Assembly: GCA_038230075.1 (NCBI GenBank)
Contig: JBBRNV010000005.1
Span: 14,071-78,070, forward strand
DNA: 64,000 nt
Direction of reading: 5' to 3'
Origin: Minisyncoccia bacterium
GTDB lineage: Bacteria; Patescibacteriota; Minisyncoccia; Phycocordibacterales; CALRBL01
A program made the translations under genes and the position numbers. The notes under the pieces were generated by a model, which made no database searches, was not told where the DNA came from, and saw only the letters and a list, made by a program, of their open reading frames with translations. Shown piece after piece: positions 4,174 to 44,239 of the stretch (positions within the stretch are counted from its first letter, which is position 1; each line of letters begins with the position of its first letter).

Positions 4174-4821
4174 ATGTCAATTCTTACCAAGAAAAATTTA
4201 CTTGAACGATTAGCAAGTGGAAATGTCACCTTTAAACCACAACTCGATACATTTCAAATTCAGTCGCACGCAATCGACCTTCGTCTTGGTTTTACATTTC
4301 TTATTCCAAAAATGTGGCAGATAACAAAACATGGTCGTGAGGCTTTGAATATTGATCATTTTGATAAAAATCGACCACCATATTTTGAAACTGTTGAGCT
4401 TGAACAAGGACAACATTTTGATCTTCTTCCGGGAGAATATGTACTTGTATCAACACTCGAATCAATGAAAGTTCCTAATGACTTAATGGCAATTCTTTTC
4501 CCCCGATCTTCAACCAATCGAAAAGGGTTATCTGTTGATCTTACAGGAATTGTTGATTCAGGATATGAAGGGCAACTGGCTATCCCCGTTCGAAACAACA
4601 CAGCGCATCAAACAGTGCGACTTTATCCAGGTGAAAGATTCTGCCAAGTTGTATTTGAAAAACTAGATGAAGAAATTGATGTTGAACACAGTCGCTACCA
4701 TCGAAAAGATATTATCGACGGTTTTGTACGAAATAAAAAAGCGACCCCAGATGATGAAAAAGAAATTGAGCTTTTGTTACAAGGTGATATCAAGGCGCTG
4801 AAAGAACAATTTAAAATCTAG
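4174..4821 (+). CDS. dcd: dCTP deaminase / dUTPase-fold enzyme (Dcd-like)
   Basis: PRSSTNRKGL...GIVDSGYEGQLAIPV matches the Dcd/dUTPase beta-jelly-roll signature; the start lies 4 nt after thyA. Confidence 0.75.
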   Translation: MSILTKKNLLERLASGNVTFKPQLDTFQIQSHAIDLRLGFTFLIPKMWQITKHGREALNIDHFDKNRPPYFETVELEQGQHFDLLPGEYVLVSTLESMKVPNDLMAILFPRSSTNRKGLSVDLTGIVDSGYEGQLAIPVRNNTAHQTVRLYPGERFCQVVFEKLDEEIDVEHSRYHRKDIIDGFVRNKKATPDDEKEIELLLQGDIKALKEQFKI

Positions 4822-4827
4822 TTTCAC

Positions 4828-5316
4828 ATGATCAATCTCATAGCAGCTATTCAAAAAAGTGATCGAGGTCTCGGATATAAAAACGAACTTTTATACAGAG
4901 TATCTGACGACTTAAAACGATTCAAAGAAATGACAACGGGTCACCCAATCATCATGGGACGAAAAACATTTGAATCAATCGGACGGGCACTTCCTAATCG
5001 TACGAACATCGTGATCACTTCACAAAAAATTGATGTTCCCGGAATTATCACTGTTCTATCTGATCAAGAAGCTTTTAATATTGCAAAGAAATCTGAAGGA
5101 TCTAATCAAATATTTATTATAGGAGGTGCACGAGTATATGAGGCATTCATGACAGTTGCCGATCAACTTTTTATAACAATTATTGAAGGAAATAAAACTG
5201 CTGATGTATTTTTTCCTACATTTGAACAAGACTTCAAAGAAATATCACGAGAAAAGCACGTAGACGCAAACACTTCGACTCCTTATTCATACGTTACCTT
5301 AGTTAAGAACTCTTAA
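4828..5316 (+). CDS. folA: Dihydrofolate reductase
   Basis: MINLIAAIQKSDRGLGYKNELLY...RFKEMTTGHPIIMGRKTFESIG; classic DHFR N-terminus and GRKT motif; 162 aa. Confidence 0.9.
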   Translation: MINLIAAIQKSDRGLGYKNELLYRVSDDLKRFKEMTTGHPIIMGRKTFESIGRALPNRTNIVITSQKIDVPGIITVLSDQEAFNIAKKSEGSNQIFIIGGARVYEAFMTVADQLFITIIEGNKTADVFFPTFEQDFKEISREKHVDANTSTPYSYVTLVKNS

Positions 5317-38643: not shown

Positions 38644-38733
38644 GGAGGAGTGGCAGAGTGGTCTATCGCACTTGTCTTGAAAACAAGAGTCCCTTCACGG
38701 GGACCGTGAGTTCGAATCTCACCTCCTCCGCCA
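38644..38733 (+). tRNA. tRNA-Ser (anticodon UGA), CCA encoded; insertion target of the adjacent element
   Basis: GGAGGAG...anticodon loop CTTGAAA...long variable arm GTCCC-TTCA-CGGGGAC...GTGAGTTCGAATCTCAC-CTCCTCC-GCCA. Confidence 0.85.
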
Positions 38734-40230
38734 AGAATCACATTTAGAAAAATCAAGGTTGGAAGCCTCGGCGCAAAGCGCCTCGGCATGGTATTTTTCC
38801 GCAATTTTGAAGGCATTTTTGAAATCGCACGCCAGCGTGCGGTCGGCAATGCGGAAGTTCGAACCAATCTTTTTGAGAAAATCCCGTCCCGCGACGGGAT
38901 TTTCTTGTTGAGCGTATTTTTCGGCTTGGTTGGCCTCTTTTAGAAAGGCAATGGCAAGTTCGAACCGATTATTGCTCTTTCGCTCAAAAGACTGGATTTT
39001 CTCCTGAAAATCTTTTTTAGCGAGAATGAGCTTGTGCTTTTTAGTGGCATATTCCGTTTGCAATAAATTGCCTTCAAGTTGTAAATCGAGCAAACGATCA
39101 AGTTTTGTCTCAACCTGCACAAGCTCATCTCTCGTCTTTTGAGCAAAAGAGCTTTCCGCTTGGGCAATATCTATTTTTTCTTTTTCAAAATATGCGATTG
39201 AAACATTGACCCAAGCGGAAGACAAAGAAACTTTTTTGATTTCCTCTTTTATTTGAGAAGTGATGGCGTCCTCTCTCGCGTATCTTTGCGAGCAAGGATT
39301 TTTCCGTTTGGTACAGCGGAGATAGTTGTGTCCCTTTTGTGTTTCAGTGGTAATGAAGCAACCACATTCTCCGCAACGGAAAAATCCTCTATACACATAA
39401 GGTTTCAACTTTGGCGATTTCGGTTTGCTCTTATTCGCCATCACTTCTTGAACGGAATCAAAAAGTTTCTTTGTGATAATCGGTTCATGCTTTCCGTCAT
39501 ACAATTCGCCGTTATATTCAATCATTCCAAAATAGATTTTATTTTTCAGCATGTACTGATAATTTGAGACGGAAAGCATTTTACCTTTCTTGCCAACCAA
39601 GCCCAAGGAATTGATAATCTTTCGGATTTGAGCGAGGGGGTATTCGCCAGTAGCGTACATTTCAAAAGCCCGCTTGATATACTTTGCCTTTTCTTTATCA
39701 ACAGCGATACAGCGGGCATTCTTGTCGTTCACATAGCCAAGCGGCGCCCAAGCGGGCCATATTCCATTTCTCAATTTCTGGCGAATACCCCTCTTTATAT
39801 TTTCCGAAAGATTATCCACATAGTATTTTGATTGCCCAAAAGCAATGGACAACATAAATTTCCCTTGCGGTGTGCAGTCAAACCAAAAAGTGGGAAATTT
39901 TAGCGTGGTAATTTTGCCAGTATCTACGAGATAGATAATCCGTCCGCCGTCTATAGAATTGCGAGCAAGGCGGTCGGGGTGCCACGCTAAAATTCCTTCC
40001 GCTTCGTTTTTCTCTATGCCCGCCACCATATCATTAAAAATTTCTCGCCCCGGCTCTTTGGCGGTTTTGCTTTCCACAAATTCACGGACGATCTGCAAAT
40101 TTTCTTTTCGCGCGTATTCTTTTAGCTCGAAAATTTGCGCTTCAATACTCAAAACCTGCCTTTCGGGTTCGTCCGTGGATTTGCGGGCATAGAGGAAAAA
40201 CTTTTTGGTTTGTAAATTTATGTTGTCCAT
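38719..40230 (-). CDS. Large serine recombinase (resolvase catalytic domain + recombinase domain + zinc ribbon + coiled coil)
   Basis: YARKSTDEPERQVLSIEAQ (catalytic Ser motif), recombinase-domain motifs, CGECGC...C zinc ribbon; 503 aa; ~44% GC versus ~37% for the host. Confidence 0.9.
   Translation of the reverse strand: MDNINLQTKKFFLYARKSTDEPERQVLSIEAQIFELKEYARKENLQIVREFVESKTAKEPGREIFNDMVAGIEKNEAEGILAWHPDRLARNSIDGGRIIYLVDTGKITTLKFPTFWFDCTPQGKFMLSIAFGQSKYYVDNLSENIKRGIRQKLRNGIWPAWAPLGYVNDKNARCIAVDKEKAKYIKRAFEMYATGEYPLAQIRKIINSLGLVGKKGKMLSVSNYQYMLKNKIYFGMIEYNGELYDGKHEPIITKKLFDSVQEVMANKSKPKSPKLKPYVYRGFFRCGECGCFITTETQKGHNYLRCTKRKNPCSQRYAREDAITSQIKEEIKKVSLSSAWVNVSIAYFEKEKIDIAQAESSFAQKTRDELVQVETKLDRLLDLQLEGNLLQTEYATKKHKLILAKKDFQEKIQSFERKSNNRFELAIAFLKEANQAEKYAQQENPVAGRDFLKKIGSNFRIADRTLACDFKNAFKIAEKYHAEALCAEASNLDFSKCDSWRRR
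38728..38861. repeat. Inverted repeat X, copy 1 (~134 bp; includes the last 6 nt of tRNA-Ser and the last ~45 codons of the recombinase)
   Basis: ccgccaagaatcacatttagaaaaatcaaggttggaagcctcggcgcaaagcgcctcggc...gcggaagttcg is the reverse complement of 40345-40478, with 1 mismatch. Weaker similarity continues ~60 bp further. Confidence 0.85.
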
Positions 40231-40344
40231 ATTGTTTTGAAATTAGTTTTTGGGCAATCAGGGAAAAATACGCTCAACCTTTCGCCGAAAGCGAAAGAAA
40301 AAAGATTGGTTTGCAAAATTCCATTTTGCCAGAACTTCGCTCTG

Positions 40345-40478
40345 CGAACTTCCGCATTGCCGACCGTACGCTGGCGTGCGATTTCAAAAATGCCTTCAAA
40401 ATTGCGGAAAAATACCATGCCGAGGCGCTTTGCGCCGAGGCTTCCAACCTTGATTTTTCTAAATGTGATTCTTGGCGG
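40345..40478. repeat. Inverted repeat X, copy 2 (immediately upstream of the recombinase start, abutting Y copy 1)
   Basis: Reverse complement of 38728-38861. Carries a duplicate of the recombinase C-terminal coding segment (the + ORF 40311..40535 reads FRIADRTLACDFKNAFKIAEKYHAEALCAEASNLDFSKCDSW). Confidence 0.85.
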
Positions 40479-40643
40479 TGTTTCTTGATTGATGTTCGAA
40501 CATTTTTTGAAGAAAATCCGAATTCCGAATTTTAAAATCCAGTTGCTCGGGCGGGCAAAAAGGAAGGGGGTTGGGGGGAAGGAATTTTTGCCCGCCCTCG
40601 CTTTCCAATCCCAATTTTTTTCCGCCGCCGTCGCCGAATTTCG
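40475..40643. repeat. Inverted repeat Y, copy 1 (~167 bp)
   Basis: gcggtgtttcttgattgatgttcgaacattttttgaag...gggcgggcaaaaaggaagggggttgggggg...ccgaatttcg is the reverse complement of 43967-44132, with 2-3 mismatches. Contains the palindrome gttcgaac. Confidence 0.85.
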
Positions 40644-40727
40644 TATTTCGCTTTGCGAAATGCGCCGCCTAGAATTTTGGTTGCCAAATTTCAATGTTTT
40701 TGTTATCATTATATTAAGCTAGTTGAT

Positions 40728-40757
40728 ATACACTCAATATAAGTAGTGTATTATAAT
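40728..40757 (+). promoter_or_regulatory. Candidate operator palindrome (atacact-N10-agtgtat) and -10 box (tataat) upstream of the cargo operon
   Basis: 7-bp inverted repeat at 40728-40751 is immediately followed by tataat at 40752-40757, 22 nt before the ATG at 40780. A plausible binding site for the XRE HTH protein in the operon. Confidence 0.35.
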
Positions 40758-40779
40758 AGTTTATCAAAGTCAAAACAAT

Positions 40780-41094
40780 ATGGCAAATCAATCGGTAAAA
40801 GAAACATTTGAATCACTTTGGGAATGTTGCACTTCTAATAAGAGGGTATGCCCAATGCCAATGAAGTGGAATGATTTATATCAAATGTTAAATGATACCA
40901 AGCAAGTCGGTGCCGGTTATGAGCCGTCAATCCCCTTGATTTTAGGAGCATGGGGAAATACTTCAGACGAAGATAAACTAAATAGATTGAGAATTCATAT
41001 TAAATGGGCTTCAGATCATAATCAGCTTGATGAAATTGGAAAATATTTGAGATCACTTTCAGAAGAAGATTGGGCTCATTACGGAGAAATATAA
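40780..41094 (+). CDS. Hypothetical 104-aa protein, first gene of the cargo operon
   Basis: MANQSVKETFESLWECCTSNKRVCPMPMKWNDLYQ...; no recognisable domain; the next gene starts 4 nt after its stop. Confidence 0.5.
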   Translation: MANQSVKETFESLWECCTSNKRVCPMPMKWNDLYQMLNDTKQVGAGYEPSIPLILGAWGNTSDEDKLNRLRIHIKWASDHNQLDEIGKYLRSLSEEDWAHYGEI

Positions 41095-41098
41095 TTTT

Positions 41099-41299
41099 AT
41101 GGCAAATACAGTAAGCGAAAACATCCGCAAATTACGAATCAAAAAAGGAATATCCCAAGATCGCCTCTCAAAAGAGGCTGATTTGGCGTTAAATACAGTT
41201 GTGAAGATAGAAACAGGCGGAAGCCCGAATCCAACCGTGGATACTTTAGAAAAAATAGCCAAAGCCCTCGGCGTTCCGGTGGCTGAATTATTTAAATAA
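41099..41299 (+). CDS. XRE/Cro-C1-type helix-turn-helix transcriptional regulator (66 aa)
   Basis: NIRKLRIKKGISQDRLSKEADLALNTVVKIETGGSPNPTVDTLEKIAKALGVPVAELF is a canonical HTH_3 domain. Confidence 0.85.
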   Translation: MANTVSENIRKLRIKKGISQDRLSKEADLALNTVVKIETGGSPNPTVDTLEKIAKALGVPVAELFK

Positions 41300-41303
41300 A
41301 AAT

Positions 41304-43934
41304 ATGTTAACACAAAAATACGACGAACTTTTTAATCCGCTATTAGAAGCACTCAATAATCTTGGGGGCTCTTCTTCGATTAAGAAAATAGAAGAGGAGG
41401 TTGCAAATATTCTTAATTTAACAGCAGAGGATAGATATGATAAGCATCGTGGAAATAGAACAAAGCTAGAATATAGATTAGCATGGGCTAGTAATTACTT
41501 AAAAAGATATGGCTTAATTGATAAATCAAAAAGAGGAATATGGTCTCTAACTGAAGACGGAAAGAGAACCAACATTGTTGACAAAGACGAAGTTAATCAA
41601 TTTGTTAAAACATTAGATTTAAAAAAATCTAATGTTCGTTTAACAAAAAAAATAGTTGAGAAAATCAATATAGTTGAATTTCTTCAAAAAATTGATTTGG
41701 AGGCTTTTAAATATGAACCTCATTTTTTAACTAACCCCGGAGTAAGAGTTAAGGATATTCTATCCAGCGTTGAAAAGAGATGGGTATTGCCGAATTTCCA
41801 AAGATATTATGATTGGGACAAGGAGGACGTAAGGGCTTTTTTGGAATCCATTTTTAAGGACTATTTTGTAGGATCGCTGCTTTTGTGGGAAGTAGAGAAA
41901 GAACCAGAGATTGCTTATTTTCCGATACAAGGTGTTAAAAACAAAATTGATAAGCCAGAAATAATTATTCTTGATGGCCAACAAAGGATTACTTCGTTGT
42001 ATTATGCGATTAAAAATCCAACTCTAGAAGAGGATGGTGTTAAATCGTTGTTTTATATAAATTTCAAAAATTATTTTGAAAATTTATCTTCCGACATTGT
42101 TATTACAAGTAGTAGAAAATTAAGCATTAGAGAGTCGGTAGAGTCCTTACTTTTCCCATTTTACGAACTGGAAAATCATGTCGAATGGATGCGAGAATTT
42201 GTTGATTTTTATGAAGAGCAGGATGGAATTGACAAAAGAAAGTTAAAAGAGCTTAGCAGAATAATGGAGGACAGGGTTCGTCATATGTGGGGAAGTTTTC
42301 AAATTCCCGAAATTAAACTTCCGGCCTCAATGAAACTTCATCATGTTGTTGATATATTTGAAAACATAAACACAAGAGGGAAACTTCTTGACGCTTTTGA
42401 TCTTTTAATTGCAGCCTCCATAAAACAGAATATTGATTTAAGAAAATTATGGGATGGTTCACGTCAGAAGTACCCAAACCTTGCTAGATATGCCGAAAAA
42501 ACAAAAAACAAGATTAGGATGTATATTTTGCAATCAATTTCGCTACTCCATAATCCAACTAGTTCATGCAAAAAAAGTGACATATTAGAATTATACGAGC
42601 AAATATACTCAAATAAGGGAAAGGACCCAAAAACTTTTGAAAAGCATTGGGAAGAAATGTCTGATTATGTAAATTTGGCCATAAAGGAGATGGAGGATCT
42701 CAAAGGTGGTTTTGGAATAATTGATGAATCACATGTTCCATTCATGTCGATAATTCCGATACTGGCTGCATTAAAAAGAGAGGTTGATTCGAGAGATAAT
42801 AAGCATAGTTGTAATGAAAAAATCAAACAATGGTATTGGTCAGTGGTATTTAGTGAAGCATATTCATCTGCGGTTGATAGCCAGCTAACATTAGACTTTA
42901 AGGAATTAAAGGAGTGGTTCTCCGATGATACAAAAATTCCAAAAAGCGTGGAAGAGGCAAGAATTCTCATTAAAACTTTGAATTTAAAAAAGGTTAATAC
43001 TTTTTCAAGTGCTGTTTTTCGTGGAGTACTCTCTTTACTAGCCATAAAAGGATCTAAAGATTTGCAAACAGGTGAAATGGTTAATAATAGAAATGACTAT
43101 CATAAAGACCATATATTTCCGAAAAGCAAATCAGAAAAATATGTTACTACAAAAAAGGAGCTAGATTCAATATTAAATATGGCTTGGTTGACAAGTCCCA
43201 CTAACGAAAGCAAGGGCGCAAAAGAACCAAAGAAATACTTTGAAGAGTTTGAGAGTAAATACAACGGAAATAAAGGAGCGTACACAGAAGTTCTTGAATC
43301 ACACTTCATCAACAAAGAGGACTACGACTATCTTCTAGATAATAATTTCGAAGAATTTATAGTCGAAAGAGAAAGTGTTTTAGTGGACGAGATTAAAAGA
43401 TTAATTGGTTGGAATAAACATGATCAAGACAGTGATATCCAAAATAACGATATCGACCAATTAATAAATTCTTACGAAAATGAAAAACTTGAGTTTAAGT
43501 CAACATTTAAAAAAAACATACTAACACAAAAATCTGATGAAATTATTAGATTTTCAGTGCTTAAAACAATAGCTGGTTTTTTGAATGCACGAGGAGGAAC
43601 TTTAATAATTGGTTATGACGAAAAAGGCAAGAAGGTAATTGGATTGGAACAAGATTACGAATTAATGAAGAGGGGTGATCGAGATAGTTTTGAGTTAGAG
43701 TTTTGGAATTACATTGAAGCGAATATTGATAAGGATGTAGTGAAAAATAATATAAATTTGAGATTTGAATTAATTGATGAGAAAGAGCTGGCAGTAATTG
43801 AAATCAAAAGAAGTTCAAAGCCAATTTATATTAAAAAAGCTGACAAAAAAATTCTTTATACTCGTAACAGAAATGAGACTGAGAATTTAGAAGATCCTGA
43901 AGAAATTCATAATTATATAGAAAAACATTTCTAA
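41304..43934 (+). CDS. Four-domain nuclease: Mrr_N winged helix + DUF262 (ParB/GmrS-like NTPase) + DUF1524 (GmrD-like His-Me/HNH nuclease) + C-terminal AlbA_2/Schlafen-like domain; GmrSD/BrxU-like type IV restriction candidate
   Basis: N-terminus YRLAWASNYLKRYGLIDKSKRGIWSLTEDG (Mrr_N). NFQRYYDW...IILDGQQRITSLYYAI (DUF262 DGQQR motif). YHKDHIFPKSK...NMAWLTSPTNESKG (DUF1524 DHIxP motif). C-terminus EKLEFKSTFKKN...SVLKTIAGFLNARGGTLIIGYDEKGKKVIGLEQD (AlbA_2). 876 aa; ~32% GC, AGA/ATA-rich codon usage. Confidence 0.8.
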   Translation: MLTQKYDELFNPLLEALNNLGGSSSIKKIEEEVANILNLTAEDRYDKHRGNRTKLEYRLAWASNYLKRYGLIDKSKRGIWSLTEDGKRTNIVDKDEVNQFVKTLDLKKSNVRLTKKIVEKINIVEFLQKIDLEAFKYEPHFLTNPGVRVKDILSSVEKRWVLPNFQRYYDWDKEDVRAFLESIFKDYFVGSLLLWEVEKEPEIAYFPIQGVKNKIDKPEIIILDGQQRITSLYYAIKNPTLEEDGVKSLFYINFKNYFENLSSDIVITSSRKLSIRESVESLLFPFYELENHVEWMREFVDFYEEQDGIDKRKLKELSRIMEDRVRHMWGSFQIPEIKLPASMKLHHVVDIFENINTRGKLLDAFDLLIAASIKQNIDLRKLWDGSRQKYPNLARYAEKTKNKIRMYILQSISLLHNPTSSCKKSDILELYEQIYSNKGKDPKTFEKHWEEMSDYVNLAIKEMEDLKGGFGIIDESHVPFMSIIPILAALKREVDSRDNKHSCNEKIKQWYWSVVFSEAYSSAVDSQLTLDFKELKEWFSDDTKIPKSVEEARILIKTLNLKKVNTFSSAVFRGVLSLLAIKGSKDLQTGEMVNNRNDYHKDHIFPKSKSEKYVTTKKELDSILNMAWLTSPTNESKGAKEPKKYFEEFESKYNGNKGAYTEVLESHFINKEDYDYLLDNNFEEFIVERESVLVDEIKRLIGWNKHDQDSDIQNNDIDQLINSYENEKLEFKSTFKKNILTQKSDEIIRFSVLKTIAGFLNARGGTLIIGYDEKGKKVIGLEQDYELMKRGDRDSFELEFWNYIEANIDKDVVKNNINLRFELIDEKELAVIEIKRSSKPIYIKKADKKILYTRNRNETENLEDPEEIHNYIEKHF

Positions 43935-43966
43935 ATTATTTTGGCGGCGTGCCAGTTTCACTGGCA

Positions 43967-44132
43967 CGAAATTCGGCGGCGGCGGAAAAAAATTGGAATC
44001 GGAAAGCGAGGGCGGGCAAAAATTCCTTCCCCCCAACCCCCTTCCTTTTTGCCCGCCCGAGCAACTGGATTTTAAAATTCGGAATTCGGATTTTCTTCAA
44101 AAAATGTTCGAACATCAATCAAGAAACACCGC
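43967..44132. repeat. Inverted repeat Y, copy 2 (right boundary of island)
   Basis: Reverse complement of 40475-40643. Ends in ...gaaacaccgc, directly followed by unique flank acataacaat. Confidence 0.85.
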
Positions 44133-44136
44133 ACAT

Positions 44137-44173
44137 AACAATAAAGACCACCTCATTGGTGGTCTTTATTGTT
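44137..44173. repeat. Perfect 16-bp stem hairpin (aacaataaagaccacc-tcatt-ggtggtctttattgtt) flanking the island; no U-tract
   Basis: Exact palindrome immediately outside IR Y'. Could be the pre-insertion tRNA-Ser downstream structure, a terminator of the convergent regulator gene, or part of the attachment site. Confidence 0.6.
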
Positions 44174-44239
44174 ATGCTACATAAGATAGAGAGATTCGGG
44201 TCGAACCTCCTTTCGAAAGGAATCTCACATTTACCACCT

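What the first reader, a model, noticed from the sequence alone, without database searches (positions are those of the whole stretch)
40700..41299. Unknown 104-aa protein plus XRE-HTH form a tight operon with the nuclease, preceded by a palindromic operator-like site overlapping a -10 box
The three cargo genes are separated by 4-nt gaps (40780-41094, 41099-41299, 41304-43934). The first protein (MANQSVKETFESLWECCTSNKRVCPMPMKWNDLYQ...) has no domain I recognise. It could be a sensor, an antitoxin-like partner, or an immunity partner of the nuclease. The atacact-N10-agtgtat palindrome at 40728-40751 abuts tataat (40752-40757), the classic layout of an autoregulated HTH-controlled promoter.
Basis: partly seen in the sequence, partly recalled or inferred. 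Interest (0 to 1): 0.55.

Follow-up and report, generated by a model that had tools for sequence, protein, structure and literature searches.

The report
Portable control head of restriction cassettes
The region is the conserved front end (promoter, palindrome, an unannotated 104-aa protein and a small repressor-like protein) of a mobile restriction-enzyme cassette, and the 104-aa protein belongs to a large unnamed family that accompanies many kinds of restriction systems, not this nuclease in particular.

Summary
The three ORFs, the 4-nt gaps, the ATACACT-N10-AGTGTAT palindrome and the abutting TATAAT sit exactly where stated.

The palindrome alone is not beyond chance. But the 58 nt that hold it are 97-98% identical in five other metagenome loci, where the adjacent coding sequence is only 76-81% identical (dS about 1). 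That makes it a constrained control region.

The 66-aa protein is an XRE/C-protein-like HTH. The 876-aa protein is a Mrr_N + GmrSD(DUF262) + AlbA_2 type IV-like nuclease.

The 104-aa protein ("FAM") matches nothing in Pfam, NCBIfam, PADLOC or PHROGs. Its confident AlphaFold model has no PDB or viral fold relative. It belongs to a family of about 1,300 clusters at 50% identity across many phyla.

At least 38 of 68 distinct FAM loci lie in restriction operons. The commonest order is HsdS-FAM-HsdR, and type III, GmrSD and PD-(D/E)xK neighbours also occur. FAMs 82-93% identical sit beside type I, III or IV cargo, so FAM is not a nuclease-specific antitoxin or immunity partner.

The leader, FAM and HTH form a portable head for swappable restriction cargo. 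Here the cassette lies in a 5.4-kb serine-recombinase island in tRNA-Ser. FAM's biochemical role is still inferred only.

The parts
38644..38733 (+). tRNA-Ser(tga). Its 3' end is the left junction (J1, attL-like) of the island.
   Evidence: ARAGORN; junction alignment.
38719..40230 (-). Large serine recombinase, 503 aa.
   Evidence: Resolvase + Recombinase + Zn_ribbon_recom domains.
38728..38861 (.). Inverted copy of repeat 'a'. It covers the 3' end of the recombinase gene.
   Evidence: Inverted repeat I2: 134 nt, 99% complementary to 40345-40478.
40345..40478 (.). Repeat 'a'. Together with 'b' it forms an intact attP-like a|b junction (J2, core GCGG at 40475-40478).
40475..40633 (.). Repeat 'b', the left boundary of the cargo module. 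It contains GC-rich hairpin 1 (40549-40597).
   Evidence: Inverted repeat I1: 159 nt, 98% complementary to 43974-44132. The hairpin is conserved in L030, L032, L033 and L041.
40642..40664 (.). Hairpin 2 (CGTATTTCGC-TTT-GCGAAATGCG) between conserved CCGCC runs. The stem sequence is replaced by a different complementary pair in L041 and at the right end of the island.
40681..40709 (+). Promoter-like site P1 (TTGCCA, 17 nt, TATCAT, with an upstream TG).
   Evidence: Consensus scan, 10 of 12 matches. It is 87-92% conserved in related loci.
40728..40751 (.). Palindrome ATACACT-N10-AGTGTAT, the putative operator. It would also form a hairpin in any transcript from P1.
40752..40757 (+). Consensus -10 hexamer TATAAT (P2). 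It is invariant in all six aligned leaders.
40780..41094 (+). FAM: a 104-aa member of a large unannotated family of restriction-associated small proteins.
41099..41299 (+). 66-aa XRE / C-protein-like HTH regulator.
   Evidence: HTH_3 E 2e-15. PADLOC HTH_VI, capH and Control_protein. C.BclI is the best natural PDB hit. Its 90%-identity cluster has 405 members.
41304..43934 (+). 876-aa nuclease: Mrr_N (6-88), GmrSD_N/DUF262 (149-368), an His-Me-like region (about 577-657) and SLFN AlbA_2 (725-861).
   Evidence: HEC-05, E 8e-30, residues 144-702; BrxU-type DUF262 structure 7p9k.
43974..44132 (.). Inverted copy of repeat 'b'. Its outer end is the right junction (J3, attR-like, core GCGG read on the - strand).
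44134..44176 (.). Perfect 19-bp hairpin just outside the island, probably the terminator that originally followed tRNA-Ser.
   Evidence: Inverted repeat I8; junction reconstruction.

Best explanation
The region 40546-41299 is a portable control head: a hairpin-rich leader, promoter(s), a 24-bp palindrome, FAM and a 66-aa XRE HTH. It drives whatever restriction cargo lies downstream, here a Mrr_N-GmrSD-AlbA_2 type IV-like nuclease. The cassette is the cargo module of a 5.4-kb large-serine-recombinase island inserted in the 3' end of tRNA-Ser.

Shown:
- The three genes are co-directional and tightly packed.
- The HTH is C-protein-like.
- The palindrome/-10/5'UTR segment is far more conserved than synonymous sites.
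- The same head precedes type I and type III R-M cargo elsewhere.
- FAM is under purifying selection.
- FAM belongs to a large family enriched in type I, III and IV restriction operons, and it does not co-vary with cargo type.

Inferred:
- The HTH dimer binds the palindrome, which overlaps the -35/-10 of P2 and lies just downstream of P1. It thereby represses its own operon and keeps nuclease expression low and buffered, as C proteins, HsdC and RptR do.
- FAM is a non-enzymatic accessory whose job does not depend on the enzymology of the nuclease. Most likely it is a regulatory or adaptor (sensor-type) domain that modulates expression or deployment of restriction. In this head it may act together with the HTH.
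For: - Anatomy.
- HTH identity.
- Nuclease identity.
- Leader conservation: five further loci carry the leader, palindrome, FAM and HTH in front of different cargo. L030 has Mod/Res. L031 and L041 have HsdM (plus HsdS in L041). L032 has DUF5655 then Mod/Res. L033 has RadC then Mod. The 58-nt segment is 96.6-98.3% identical, against 76-81% for the FAM coding sequence. dS to the window copy is 0.36-0.51 for the HTH and 0.9-1.7 for FAM.
- FAM is a real gene: 35 close homologs, dN/dS about 0.11, AlphaFold pLDDT 89.8 and pTM 0.81.
- Family size: 1,294 representatives at E<=1e-3.
- Restriction association. Of 68 distinct loci, 38 have recognised restriction genes within 5 kb, and 14 of the other 30 have under 2.5 kb of flanking sequence in total. 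Of 7 loci chosen only for contig length, 4 are type I or DUF1156/DUF499 (Hma-like, from my memory of that system) loci.
- Cargo independence: FAMs 82-93% identical lie beside type I, III or IV cargo.
- Conserved positions are R22, C24, P25, P27, W30, P52, W58, K66, R69 and W98, with no obvious catalytic constellation.
- Precedents for small first-ORF repressors of R-M operons whose sites overlap the promoter: PMC12707154 (C proteins, HsdC), PMC5282649 (HsdC), PMC12255303 (RptR).
Against: - No binding data exist.
- A single 7-N10-7 site puts the half-site centres 17 bp apart. That differs from classical C-boxes, which are two adjacent short palindromes.
- The palindrome lies upstream of FAM, not directly upstream of the HTH gene.
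- L012-L015 and L070 carry a nearly identical HTH with no palindrome within the sequence held.
- The HTH cluster (405 members) is much commoner than close FAM relatives, so the HTH does not need FAM. Most FAM genes have no HTH neighbour (6 of 68), so FAM does not need the HTH.
- Leader conservation could partly reflect homogenisation of the element's recombination end rather than operator function.
- FAM's role rests on context and exclusion only. No fold, motif or fusion points to one activity. Thirty of 68 loci show no recognised restriction gene, and the neighbours found by Pfam include Macro, HD_4 and TPR proteins as well as plain housekeeping genes.
Confidence: 0.55

Rival explanations
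1. FAM and the HTH form a type II toxin-antitoxin (HigBA-like, toxin-first) addiction module that stabilises the island. The palindrome is the TA operator.
For: A small protein is followed at 4 nt by an XRE HTH on a mobile island. The pair occurs twice in L012, once directly in front of a P-type ATPase. NCBIfam gives weak similarity of the HTH to Y4mF/HipB/MqsA-type antitoxins, all below their cut-offs.
Confidence: 0.08
2. FAM is a dedicated inhibitor, immunity protein or sensor partner of the GmrSD-type nuclease.
For: It is adjacent to and co-transcribed with the nuclease here. GmrSD genes also lie near FAM in L017, L025, L049 and L063.
Against: FAMs 82-88% identical to the window copy lie beside type I or type III systems with no GmrSD. 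The dominant arrangement is HsdS-FAM-HsdR. The head is shared while the cargo differs.
Confidence: 0.05
3. The palindrome is not a protein operator. It is an RNA hairpin in the 5'UTR of a P1 transcript (affecting stability or translation), or it is conserved only as part of a recombination-homogenised element end.
For: P1 (40681-40709) would place the palindrome at about +10 to +35 of the transcript, and it folds as a hairpin. The only substitution is in the loop or spacer, which suits either reading. The neighbouring leader hairpins are also highly conserved. Seven-nt inverted repeats are common by chance.
Against: The perfect TATAAT abutting the right arm is invariant. The layout (arms over -35 and -10) is that of a repressor site. 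P1, which lies between the hairpins and the palindrome, is less conserved (87-92%) than the palindrome segment (97-98%), so conservation is not a simple gradient from the element end. A highly conserved HTH is always present with it.
Confidence: 0.2
4. FAM is an anti-restriction or restriction-alleviation factor (ArdA/Ocr-like or Ral-like). It would protect the incoming element or the new host while the cassette establishes itself.
For: It is the first gene of a mobile cassette, it is associated with many restriction types regardless of mechanism, and it is mildly acidic (pI 5.1).
Against: It is not strongly acidic (family median pI 5.7, median net charge -3). None was found in the phage, plasmid or IMG/VR collections searched. 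It has no fold match to known anti-restriction proteins. [quoted passage not shown]
Confidence: 0.1

Closest known systems
R-M controller (C) proteins, including HsdC of Mycoplasma gallisepticum
   Same: The 66-aa protein is a small XRE HTH encoded immediately upstream of, and co-transcribed with, the restriction nuclease. A symmetric site overlaps its promoter. C.BclI is the best natural PDB sequence hit and PADLOC Control_protein scores E 3.6e-11. HsdC shows that such a protein can head and repress a non-type II (type I) operon (PMC5282649, PMC12707154).
   Different: There is one 7-N10-7 palindrome rather than the paired C-boxes. An extra gene (FAM) lies between the site and the HTH gene. 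The cargo here is a methyltransferase-less type IV-like nuclease, so the usual rationale of delaying restriction relative to methylation does not apply. The same regulator heads type I, III and IV cargo.
RptR (79-aa first-ORF repressor of type I RMS defence islands, PMC12255303)
   Same: It is a small, previously unannotated protein encoded at the head of a restriction island and strongly associated with type I RMS. Its binding sites overlap the -10 box, and it had no PDB fold relative when found. It is a precedent for what FAM or the head might be doing.
   Different: RptR is a four-helix, 79-aa homodimer. FAM is about 100 aa, mixed alpha/beta and Trp-rich. No PDB chain gave a meaningful sequence or fold match to FAM, whether or not RptR is in the copies searched. 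FAM usually lies between hsdS and hsdR, not first.
GmrSD / BrxU type IV restriction enzymes
   Same: The downstream 876-aa protein has the DUF262 (GmrSD_N) domain (E 5e-31). It matches PADLOC HEC-05 over residues 144-702 and the BrxU-type DUF262 structure 7p9k.
   Different: It carries an N-terminal Mrr_N and a C-terminal Schlafen AlbA_2 domain. Pfam GmrSD_C (DUF1524) is not detected at E<=0.1, and only an His-Me-like stretch is seen (PHROG endonuclease VII, residues 577-657).
Genes embedded in type I R-M operons between hsdS and hsdR (PrrC, DarTG2 and similar)
   Same: FAM occupies the same hsdS-X-hsdR slot that the RptR paper notes as a hotspot for embedded defence genes (PMC12255303).
   Different: Those are effectors or toxins with recognisable catalytic domains. 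FAM is a 100-aa domain with no catalytic signature.

Membership tests
R-M controller (C) protein | Small single-domain XRE-type HTH protein | tested here: met
   HTH_3 E 2e-15 over residues 9-64. PADLOC Control_protein E 3.6e-11. C.BclI is the best natural PDB hit.
R-M controller (C) protein | Gene directly upstream of and co-transcribed with the restriction endonuclease gene | tested here: met
   4-nt gap to the nuclease ORF on the same strand. Co-transcription is inferred.
R-M controller (C) protein | C-box operator (paired palindromic sites) upstream of the C gene, giving activation then repression | tested here: inconclusive
   A single conserved 7-N10-7 palindrome overlaps the promoter, upstream of FAM rather than of the HTH gene. 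No second site was identified. Binding and the dual activity are not testable here.
GmrSD type IV restriction enzyme | N-terminal DUF262 (ParB-like NTPase) domain | tested here: met
   PF03235 E 5.4e-31, residues 149-368.
GmrSD type IV restriction enzyme | C-terminal DUF1524 His-Me finger nuclease domain | tested here: inconclusive
   PF07510 is not reported at E<=0.1. PADLOC HEC-05 aligns through residue 702. PHROG endonuclease VII matches residues 577-657, E 2e-5. A DHIFP...N motif is visible in the translation.
GmrSD type IV restriction enzyme | Cleavage dependent on modified DNA | not testable with these tools
   Biochemical property.
Type II toxin-antitoxin (HigBA-like) for FAM + HTH | Toxin with a known toxin fold or catalytic residues | tested here: not met
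Type II toxin-antitoxin (HigBA-like) for FAM + HTH | Obligate pairing of the two genes | tested here: not met
   The HTH is adjacent in only 6 of 68 distinct FAM loci. The HTH cluster of 405 members far exceeds the close FAM relatives.
RptR family | 79-aa all-helical homodimeric repressor, with sequence homology to EPEC RptR | tested here: not met
   The FAM profile finds no meaningful PDB sequence. The model contains strands and has no PDB fold match. The description of RptR is from PMC12255303. I did not confirm that the RptR entry is in the PDB copies searched.
DNA-mimic anti-restriction proteins (ArdA/Ocr) | Strongly acidic surface; encoded on phages, plasmids or transposons | tested here: not met
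   pI 5.1 and net charge -5; family median pI 5.7. No hit in the phage, plasmid or IMG/VR collections searched.
Large serine recombinase integrative island | Resolvase + Recombinase + zinc-ribbon recombinase, with short-core junctions reconstructing an intact target | tested here: met
   Domains. J1, J2 and J3 share the core GCGG, and joining the outer halves gives the tRNA-Ser 3' end followed by a terminator hairpin. Activity is not testable.

The most novel reading that the evidence does not exclude
FAM defines a new, widespread, mechanism-independent component of restriction systems. It would be a small sensor or adaptor domain with a fold not yet seen, gating expression or activity of type I, III and IV enzymes alike. 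In Patescibacteria it would be packaged with an XRE repressor and a hairpin-rich leader as a standard head onto which a serine recombinase swaps restriction cargo. The cargo modules bounded by inverted repeats and an internal inverted attP-like site would then act as a kind of restriction-cassette exchange platform.
Probability: 0.2. Interest if true: 0.8.

Novelty: new variant of a known kind. Interest (0 to 1): 0.6.

Why it matters
How restriction systems are regulated and safely established is understood mainly for type II C proteins and ClpXP-dependent type I alleviation. RptR (2025) showed that small unannotated regulators of R-M islands are still being found.

FAM is a family of about 1,300 clusters at 50% identity. 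It has a confident but unmatched fold, is under strong purifying selection, and is absent from Pfam, NCBIfam, PADLOC and PHROGs. It sits inside type I, III and IV restriction operons across many phyla.

If FAM is a shared regulatory or accessory component, it is missing from current models of these systems and from defence-annotation tools. The shared leader-FAM-HTH head with exchangeable cargo also suggests how reduced-genome Patescibacteria shuffle restriction specificities.

Tried and rejected
1. Family libraries for FAM (Pfam, NCBIfam, PADLOC, PHROGs), tried on the window protein and, for Pfam and NCBIfam, on 96 diverse members: only scattered single-member noise hits.
3. A PDB profile search gave only a designed repeat protein, which is spurious.
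4. tblastn against plasmids (with the Bradyrhizobium FAM) and phages, and an IMG/VR scan for FAM and for the leader: no hits.
5. DNA-mimic idea: rejected on charge.
6. Diversifying-selection (arms-race sensor) idea: rejected, dN/dS about 0.1.
7. Looked for a common partner gene downstream of FAM. The partners are heterogeneous: T5orf172, Macro, HD_4, zinc-ribbon-like proteins (read from the sequence) and unknowns.
8. Fusion partners do not converge on one function: GIY-YIG_2, weak PIN, Mrr_N, DUF3293, Sel1, zf-C2H2, and three FAM copies in tandem.
9. The literature search for DUF3293 returned nothing.
10. The alignment of 96 diverse members was too divergent for the genome scan, so the closer alignment A1 was used. 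This biases the sampled loci towards relatives of the window protein.

Full report
**1. Observation.** The sequence matches the description. ORFs 40780-41094 (104 aa), 41099-41299 (66 aa) and 41304-43934 (876 aa) lie on the + strand and are separated by 4 nt each. ATACACT (40728-40734), a 10-nt spacer and AGTGTAT (40745-40751) are followed directly by TATAAT (40752-40757).

A perfect 7-nt inverted repeat is weak evidence on its own. The window holds 135 of them with spacers of 0-14 nt, and 22-26% of composition-matched resamples of this leader contain one. The consensus scan also finds an upstream promoter-like site, P1 (TTGCCA-17-TATCAT with a TG, 40681-40709), and a weaker match whose hexamers fall on the two palindrome arms.

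**2. The three proteins.** The 66-aa protein is a bare XRE HTH (HTH_3, E 2e-15). It resembles PADLOC HTH_VI, capH and R-M Control_protein models, and its best natural PDB relative is the controller protein C.BclI.

The 876-aa protein has four parts: Mrr_N, GmrSD_N (DUF262), an His-Me-like stretch and Schlafen AlbA_2. It aligns to PADLOC HEC-05 over residues 144-702 and weakly to the BrxU-type DUF262 structure 7p9k. Pfam GmrSD_C was not detected, so calling it DUF1524 is plausible but unproven.

The 104-aa protein (FAM) hits nothing in Pfam, NCBIfam, PADLOC or PHROGs.

**3. FAM is a real and widespread family.**
- Thirty-five close homologs (52-86% identity) align end to end.
- dN/dS among close relatives is about 0.11.
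- A profile search of 1.84 billion cluster representatives finds 1,294 at E<=1e-3 and 572 at E<=1e-10.
- None of 96 diverse members matches a Pfam or NCBIfam model, apart from scattered single-member noise hits. Source names are "hypothetical protein" in all but one odd case.
- Genome hits span Patescibacteria, Spirochaetaceae, Neomarinimicrobiota, Bradyrhizobium, Chthoniobacterales and Pyrinomonadaceae, plus a Deltaproteobacteria MAG.
- None was found in the phage, plasmid or IMG/VR collections.
- Positions conserved across the family are R22, C24, P25, P27, W30, P52, W58, K66, R69 and W98. The median pI is 5.7. This gives neither a catalytic signature nor a DNA-mimic charge.

**4. Context of FAM.** I used database gene calls with Pfam, my own Pfam scans of neighbours and a BLAST classification of ORFs in 98 loci.

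Thirty-eight of 68 distinct FAM loci have recognised restriction genes within 5 kb:
- type I: 25 loci, 4 of them also with GmrSD;
- type III: 10 loci, one of them also with PD-(D/E)xK;
- GmrSD-like: 6 loci in all, counting the 4 that also have type I;
- PD-(D/E)xK: 2 loci in all, counting the one that also has type III.

Fourteen of the remaining 30 loci have under 2.5 kb of flanking sequence. The commonest arrangement is HsdS-FAM-HsdR.

Seven further loci were chosen only because their contigs were long. Three are type I loci (one degenerate) and one is a DUF1156/DUF499 locus, which I recall as the Hma system. The reference set was small, so these counts are lower bounds. The sampling is also biased towards relatives of the window protein, because the diverse alignment could not be used for the scans.

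Other neighbours or fusion partners include T5orf172/GIY-YIG, Macro with DUF3293, HD_4, Sel1/TPR, weak PIN and Mrr_N. FAM is therefore a promiscuous small domain of conflict-type loci, with restriction operons as its main home.

**5. FAM is not nuclease-specific.** FAM proteins 82-93% identical to one another lie beside type I, type III or GmrSD cargo. The window protein itself is 88% identical to one next to a T5orf172-like gene and HsdM (L029). It is 83% identical to one in HsdS-FAM-HsdR (L035) and 82% identical to one heading a Mod/Res operon (L030). A protein that had to fit its nuclease would not tolerate this. This removes the dedicated antitoxin or immunity reading.

**6. The conserved head.** In L030, L031, L032, L033 and L041 the same non-coding leader, FAM and a 95-97% identical HTH protein (90-92% at the DNA level) precede different cargo:

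| Locus | Cargo after the HTH |
|---|---|
| L030 | Mod/Res |
| L031 | HsdM |
| L032 | DUF5655, then Mod/Res |
| L033 | RadC, then Mod |
| L041 | HsdM ... HsdS |

Identity to the window, segment by segment:

| Segment | Identity |
|---|---|
| Hairpin leader | 90-99% |
| P1 | 87-92% |
| Palindrome / -10 / 5'UTR (40722-40779) | 96.6-98.3% |
| FAM coding sequence | 76-81% |
| HTH coding sequence | 90-92% |
| Cargo | unrelated |

Synonymous divergence from the window copy is 0.36-0.51 in the HTH and 0.9-1.7 in FAM, so the 58-nt segment is under strong constraint. The only change inside the palindrome is at the spacer centre. The exact palindrome occurs once in each of these five loci and in none of the other 93.

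This supports a functional control element that travels with this HTH. It does not prove an operator. The palindrome would also form a hairpin in a P1 transcript. The L012-type loci carry the same HTH recognition helix without a palindrome in the sequence held.

The HTH's 90%-identity cluster has 405 members, the named ones from Wolfebacteria, Roizmanbacteria and other Patescibacteria. It is therefore a widely circulating regulator that does not depend on FAM.

**7. Setting.** The cassette is the cargo of a serine-recombinase island. tRNA-Ser (38644-38733) abuts the 3' end of a large serine recombinase gene (38719-40230, minus strand).

Three junctions share the core GCGG:
- J1: tRNA 3' end | rc(a);
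- J2: a|b at 40475-40478;
- J3: rc(b) | a perfect hairpin at 44134-44176.

Joining the outer halves of J1 and J3 gives the tRNA 3' end followed by a terminator-like hairpin, which is a plausible empty site. Unusually, an intact inverted attP-like a|b copy separates the recombinase module from the cargo module. Each module is therefore bounded by inverted repeats of 134 or 159 nt at 98-99% identity.

In L041, the segment next to the head is also bounded by inverted repeats. It carries a TaqI-like endonuclease, a LexA/S24-N6_N4 methyltransferase fusion and a GIY-YIG protein. This suggests arrays of exchangeable restriction modules, which remains an inference.

**8. Mechanism.** Most likely the HTH dimer binds the palindrome over P2 (and downstream of P1) and autoregulates the operon, buffering nuclease levels. 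C proteins, HsdC and RptR do the same for their operons (PMC12707154, PMC5282649, PMC12255303).

FAM is co-expressed as a cargo-independent, non-enzymatic accessory. My preferred reading is a regulatory or adaptor (sensor-type) domain. I hold it at modest confidence, because it rests on context, fusions and exclusion of alternatives.

Rivals, with their confidences:
- TA module: 0.08
- GmrSD-specific partner: 0.05
- RNA hairpin or recombination-end conservation for the palindrome: 0.2
- anti-restriction or alleviation factor: 0.1

**9. Verdict.** The HTH-controlled restriction cassette is a new variant of a known kind. The main new result is that the "unknown 104-aa protein" belongs to a large, uncurated, restriction-associated family with an unmatched fold, packaged here in a portable control head.

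Noticed in passing
window 38644-44176: A 5.4-kb large-serine-recombinase island sits in the 3' end of tRNA-Ser. Junctions J1, J2 and J3 share the core GCGG. An intact inverted attP-like copy (a|b, 40345-40633) lies between the recombinase module and the cargo module, so each module is bounded by inverted repeats of 134 or 159 nt at 98-99% identity. The modules could invert or be exchanged.
   Followed up: partly
window 40642-40664 and 43950-43972; L041 about 4810-4835: Hairpin 2 of the leader keeps its CCGCC-rich flanks but has three different complementary stem sequences: ATTTCGC/GCGAAAT, GCCAGC/GCTGGC and GTGCCAG/CTGGCAC. This is compensatory variation and suggests a selected DNA or RNA structure.
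   Followed up: partly
L012 40-565 and 4205-4742: One contig holds two FAM+HTH pairs. The first is followed directly by a P-type cation ATPase and a YgaP-like membrane protein. The second is followed by an EVE-YhcG nuclease and a type III Mod/Res pair. Neither has the palindrome in the sequence held.
   Followed up: partly
window 41099-41299: The 66-aa HTH belongs to a 90%-identity cluster of 405 members. The named ones come from Wolfebacteria, Roizmanbacteria and other Patescibacteria, which points to horizontal spread or extreme constraint.
   Followed up: no
L041 1053-4693: The segment next to the head is bounded by 199-nt inverted repeats (98%). It carries a TaqI-like endonuclease, a LexA_DNA_bind + Peptidase_S24 + N6_N4 methyltransferase fusion and a small GIY-YIG protein. 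A methyltransferase fused to a LexA-like repressor is notable in itself.
   Followed up: partly
L069, L071, L096; proteins P0118, P0153: FAM is fused to DUF3293 in some proteins. In other loci it is followed by a Macro-domain gene and then a DUF3293 gene. This is a Rosetta-stone link to a possible ADP-ribose-related module.
   Followed up: partly
proteins P0036, P0065, P0093, P0167, P0061: Other FAM architectures: three tandem FAM copies; GIY-YIG_2 + FAM; weak PIN + FAM; Mrr_N + FAM + an unknown 115-aa C-terminal domain also found in P0046 and P0109; and FAM followed by a region that looks receiver/GGDEF-like from reading the sequence, with no Pfam hit.
   Followed up: partly
window 40311-40535 (+): Because repeat 'a' duplicates the recombinase 3' end, an ORF here encodes the same C-terminal 45 or so residues with a different tail (...DSWRCFLIDVRTFFEENPNSEF instead of ...DSWRRR). 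Inversion of the recombinase module would switch the enzyme's C-terminus.
   Followed up: no
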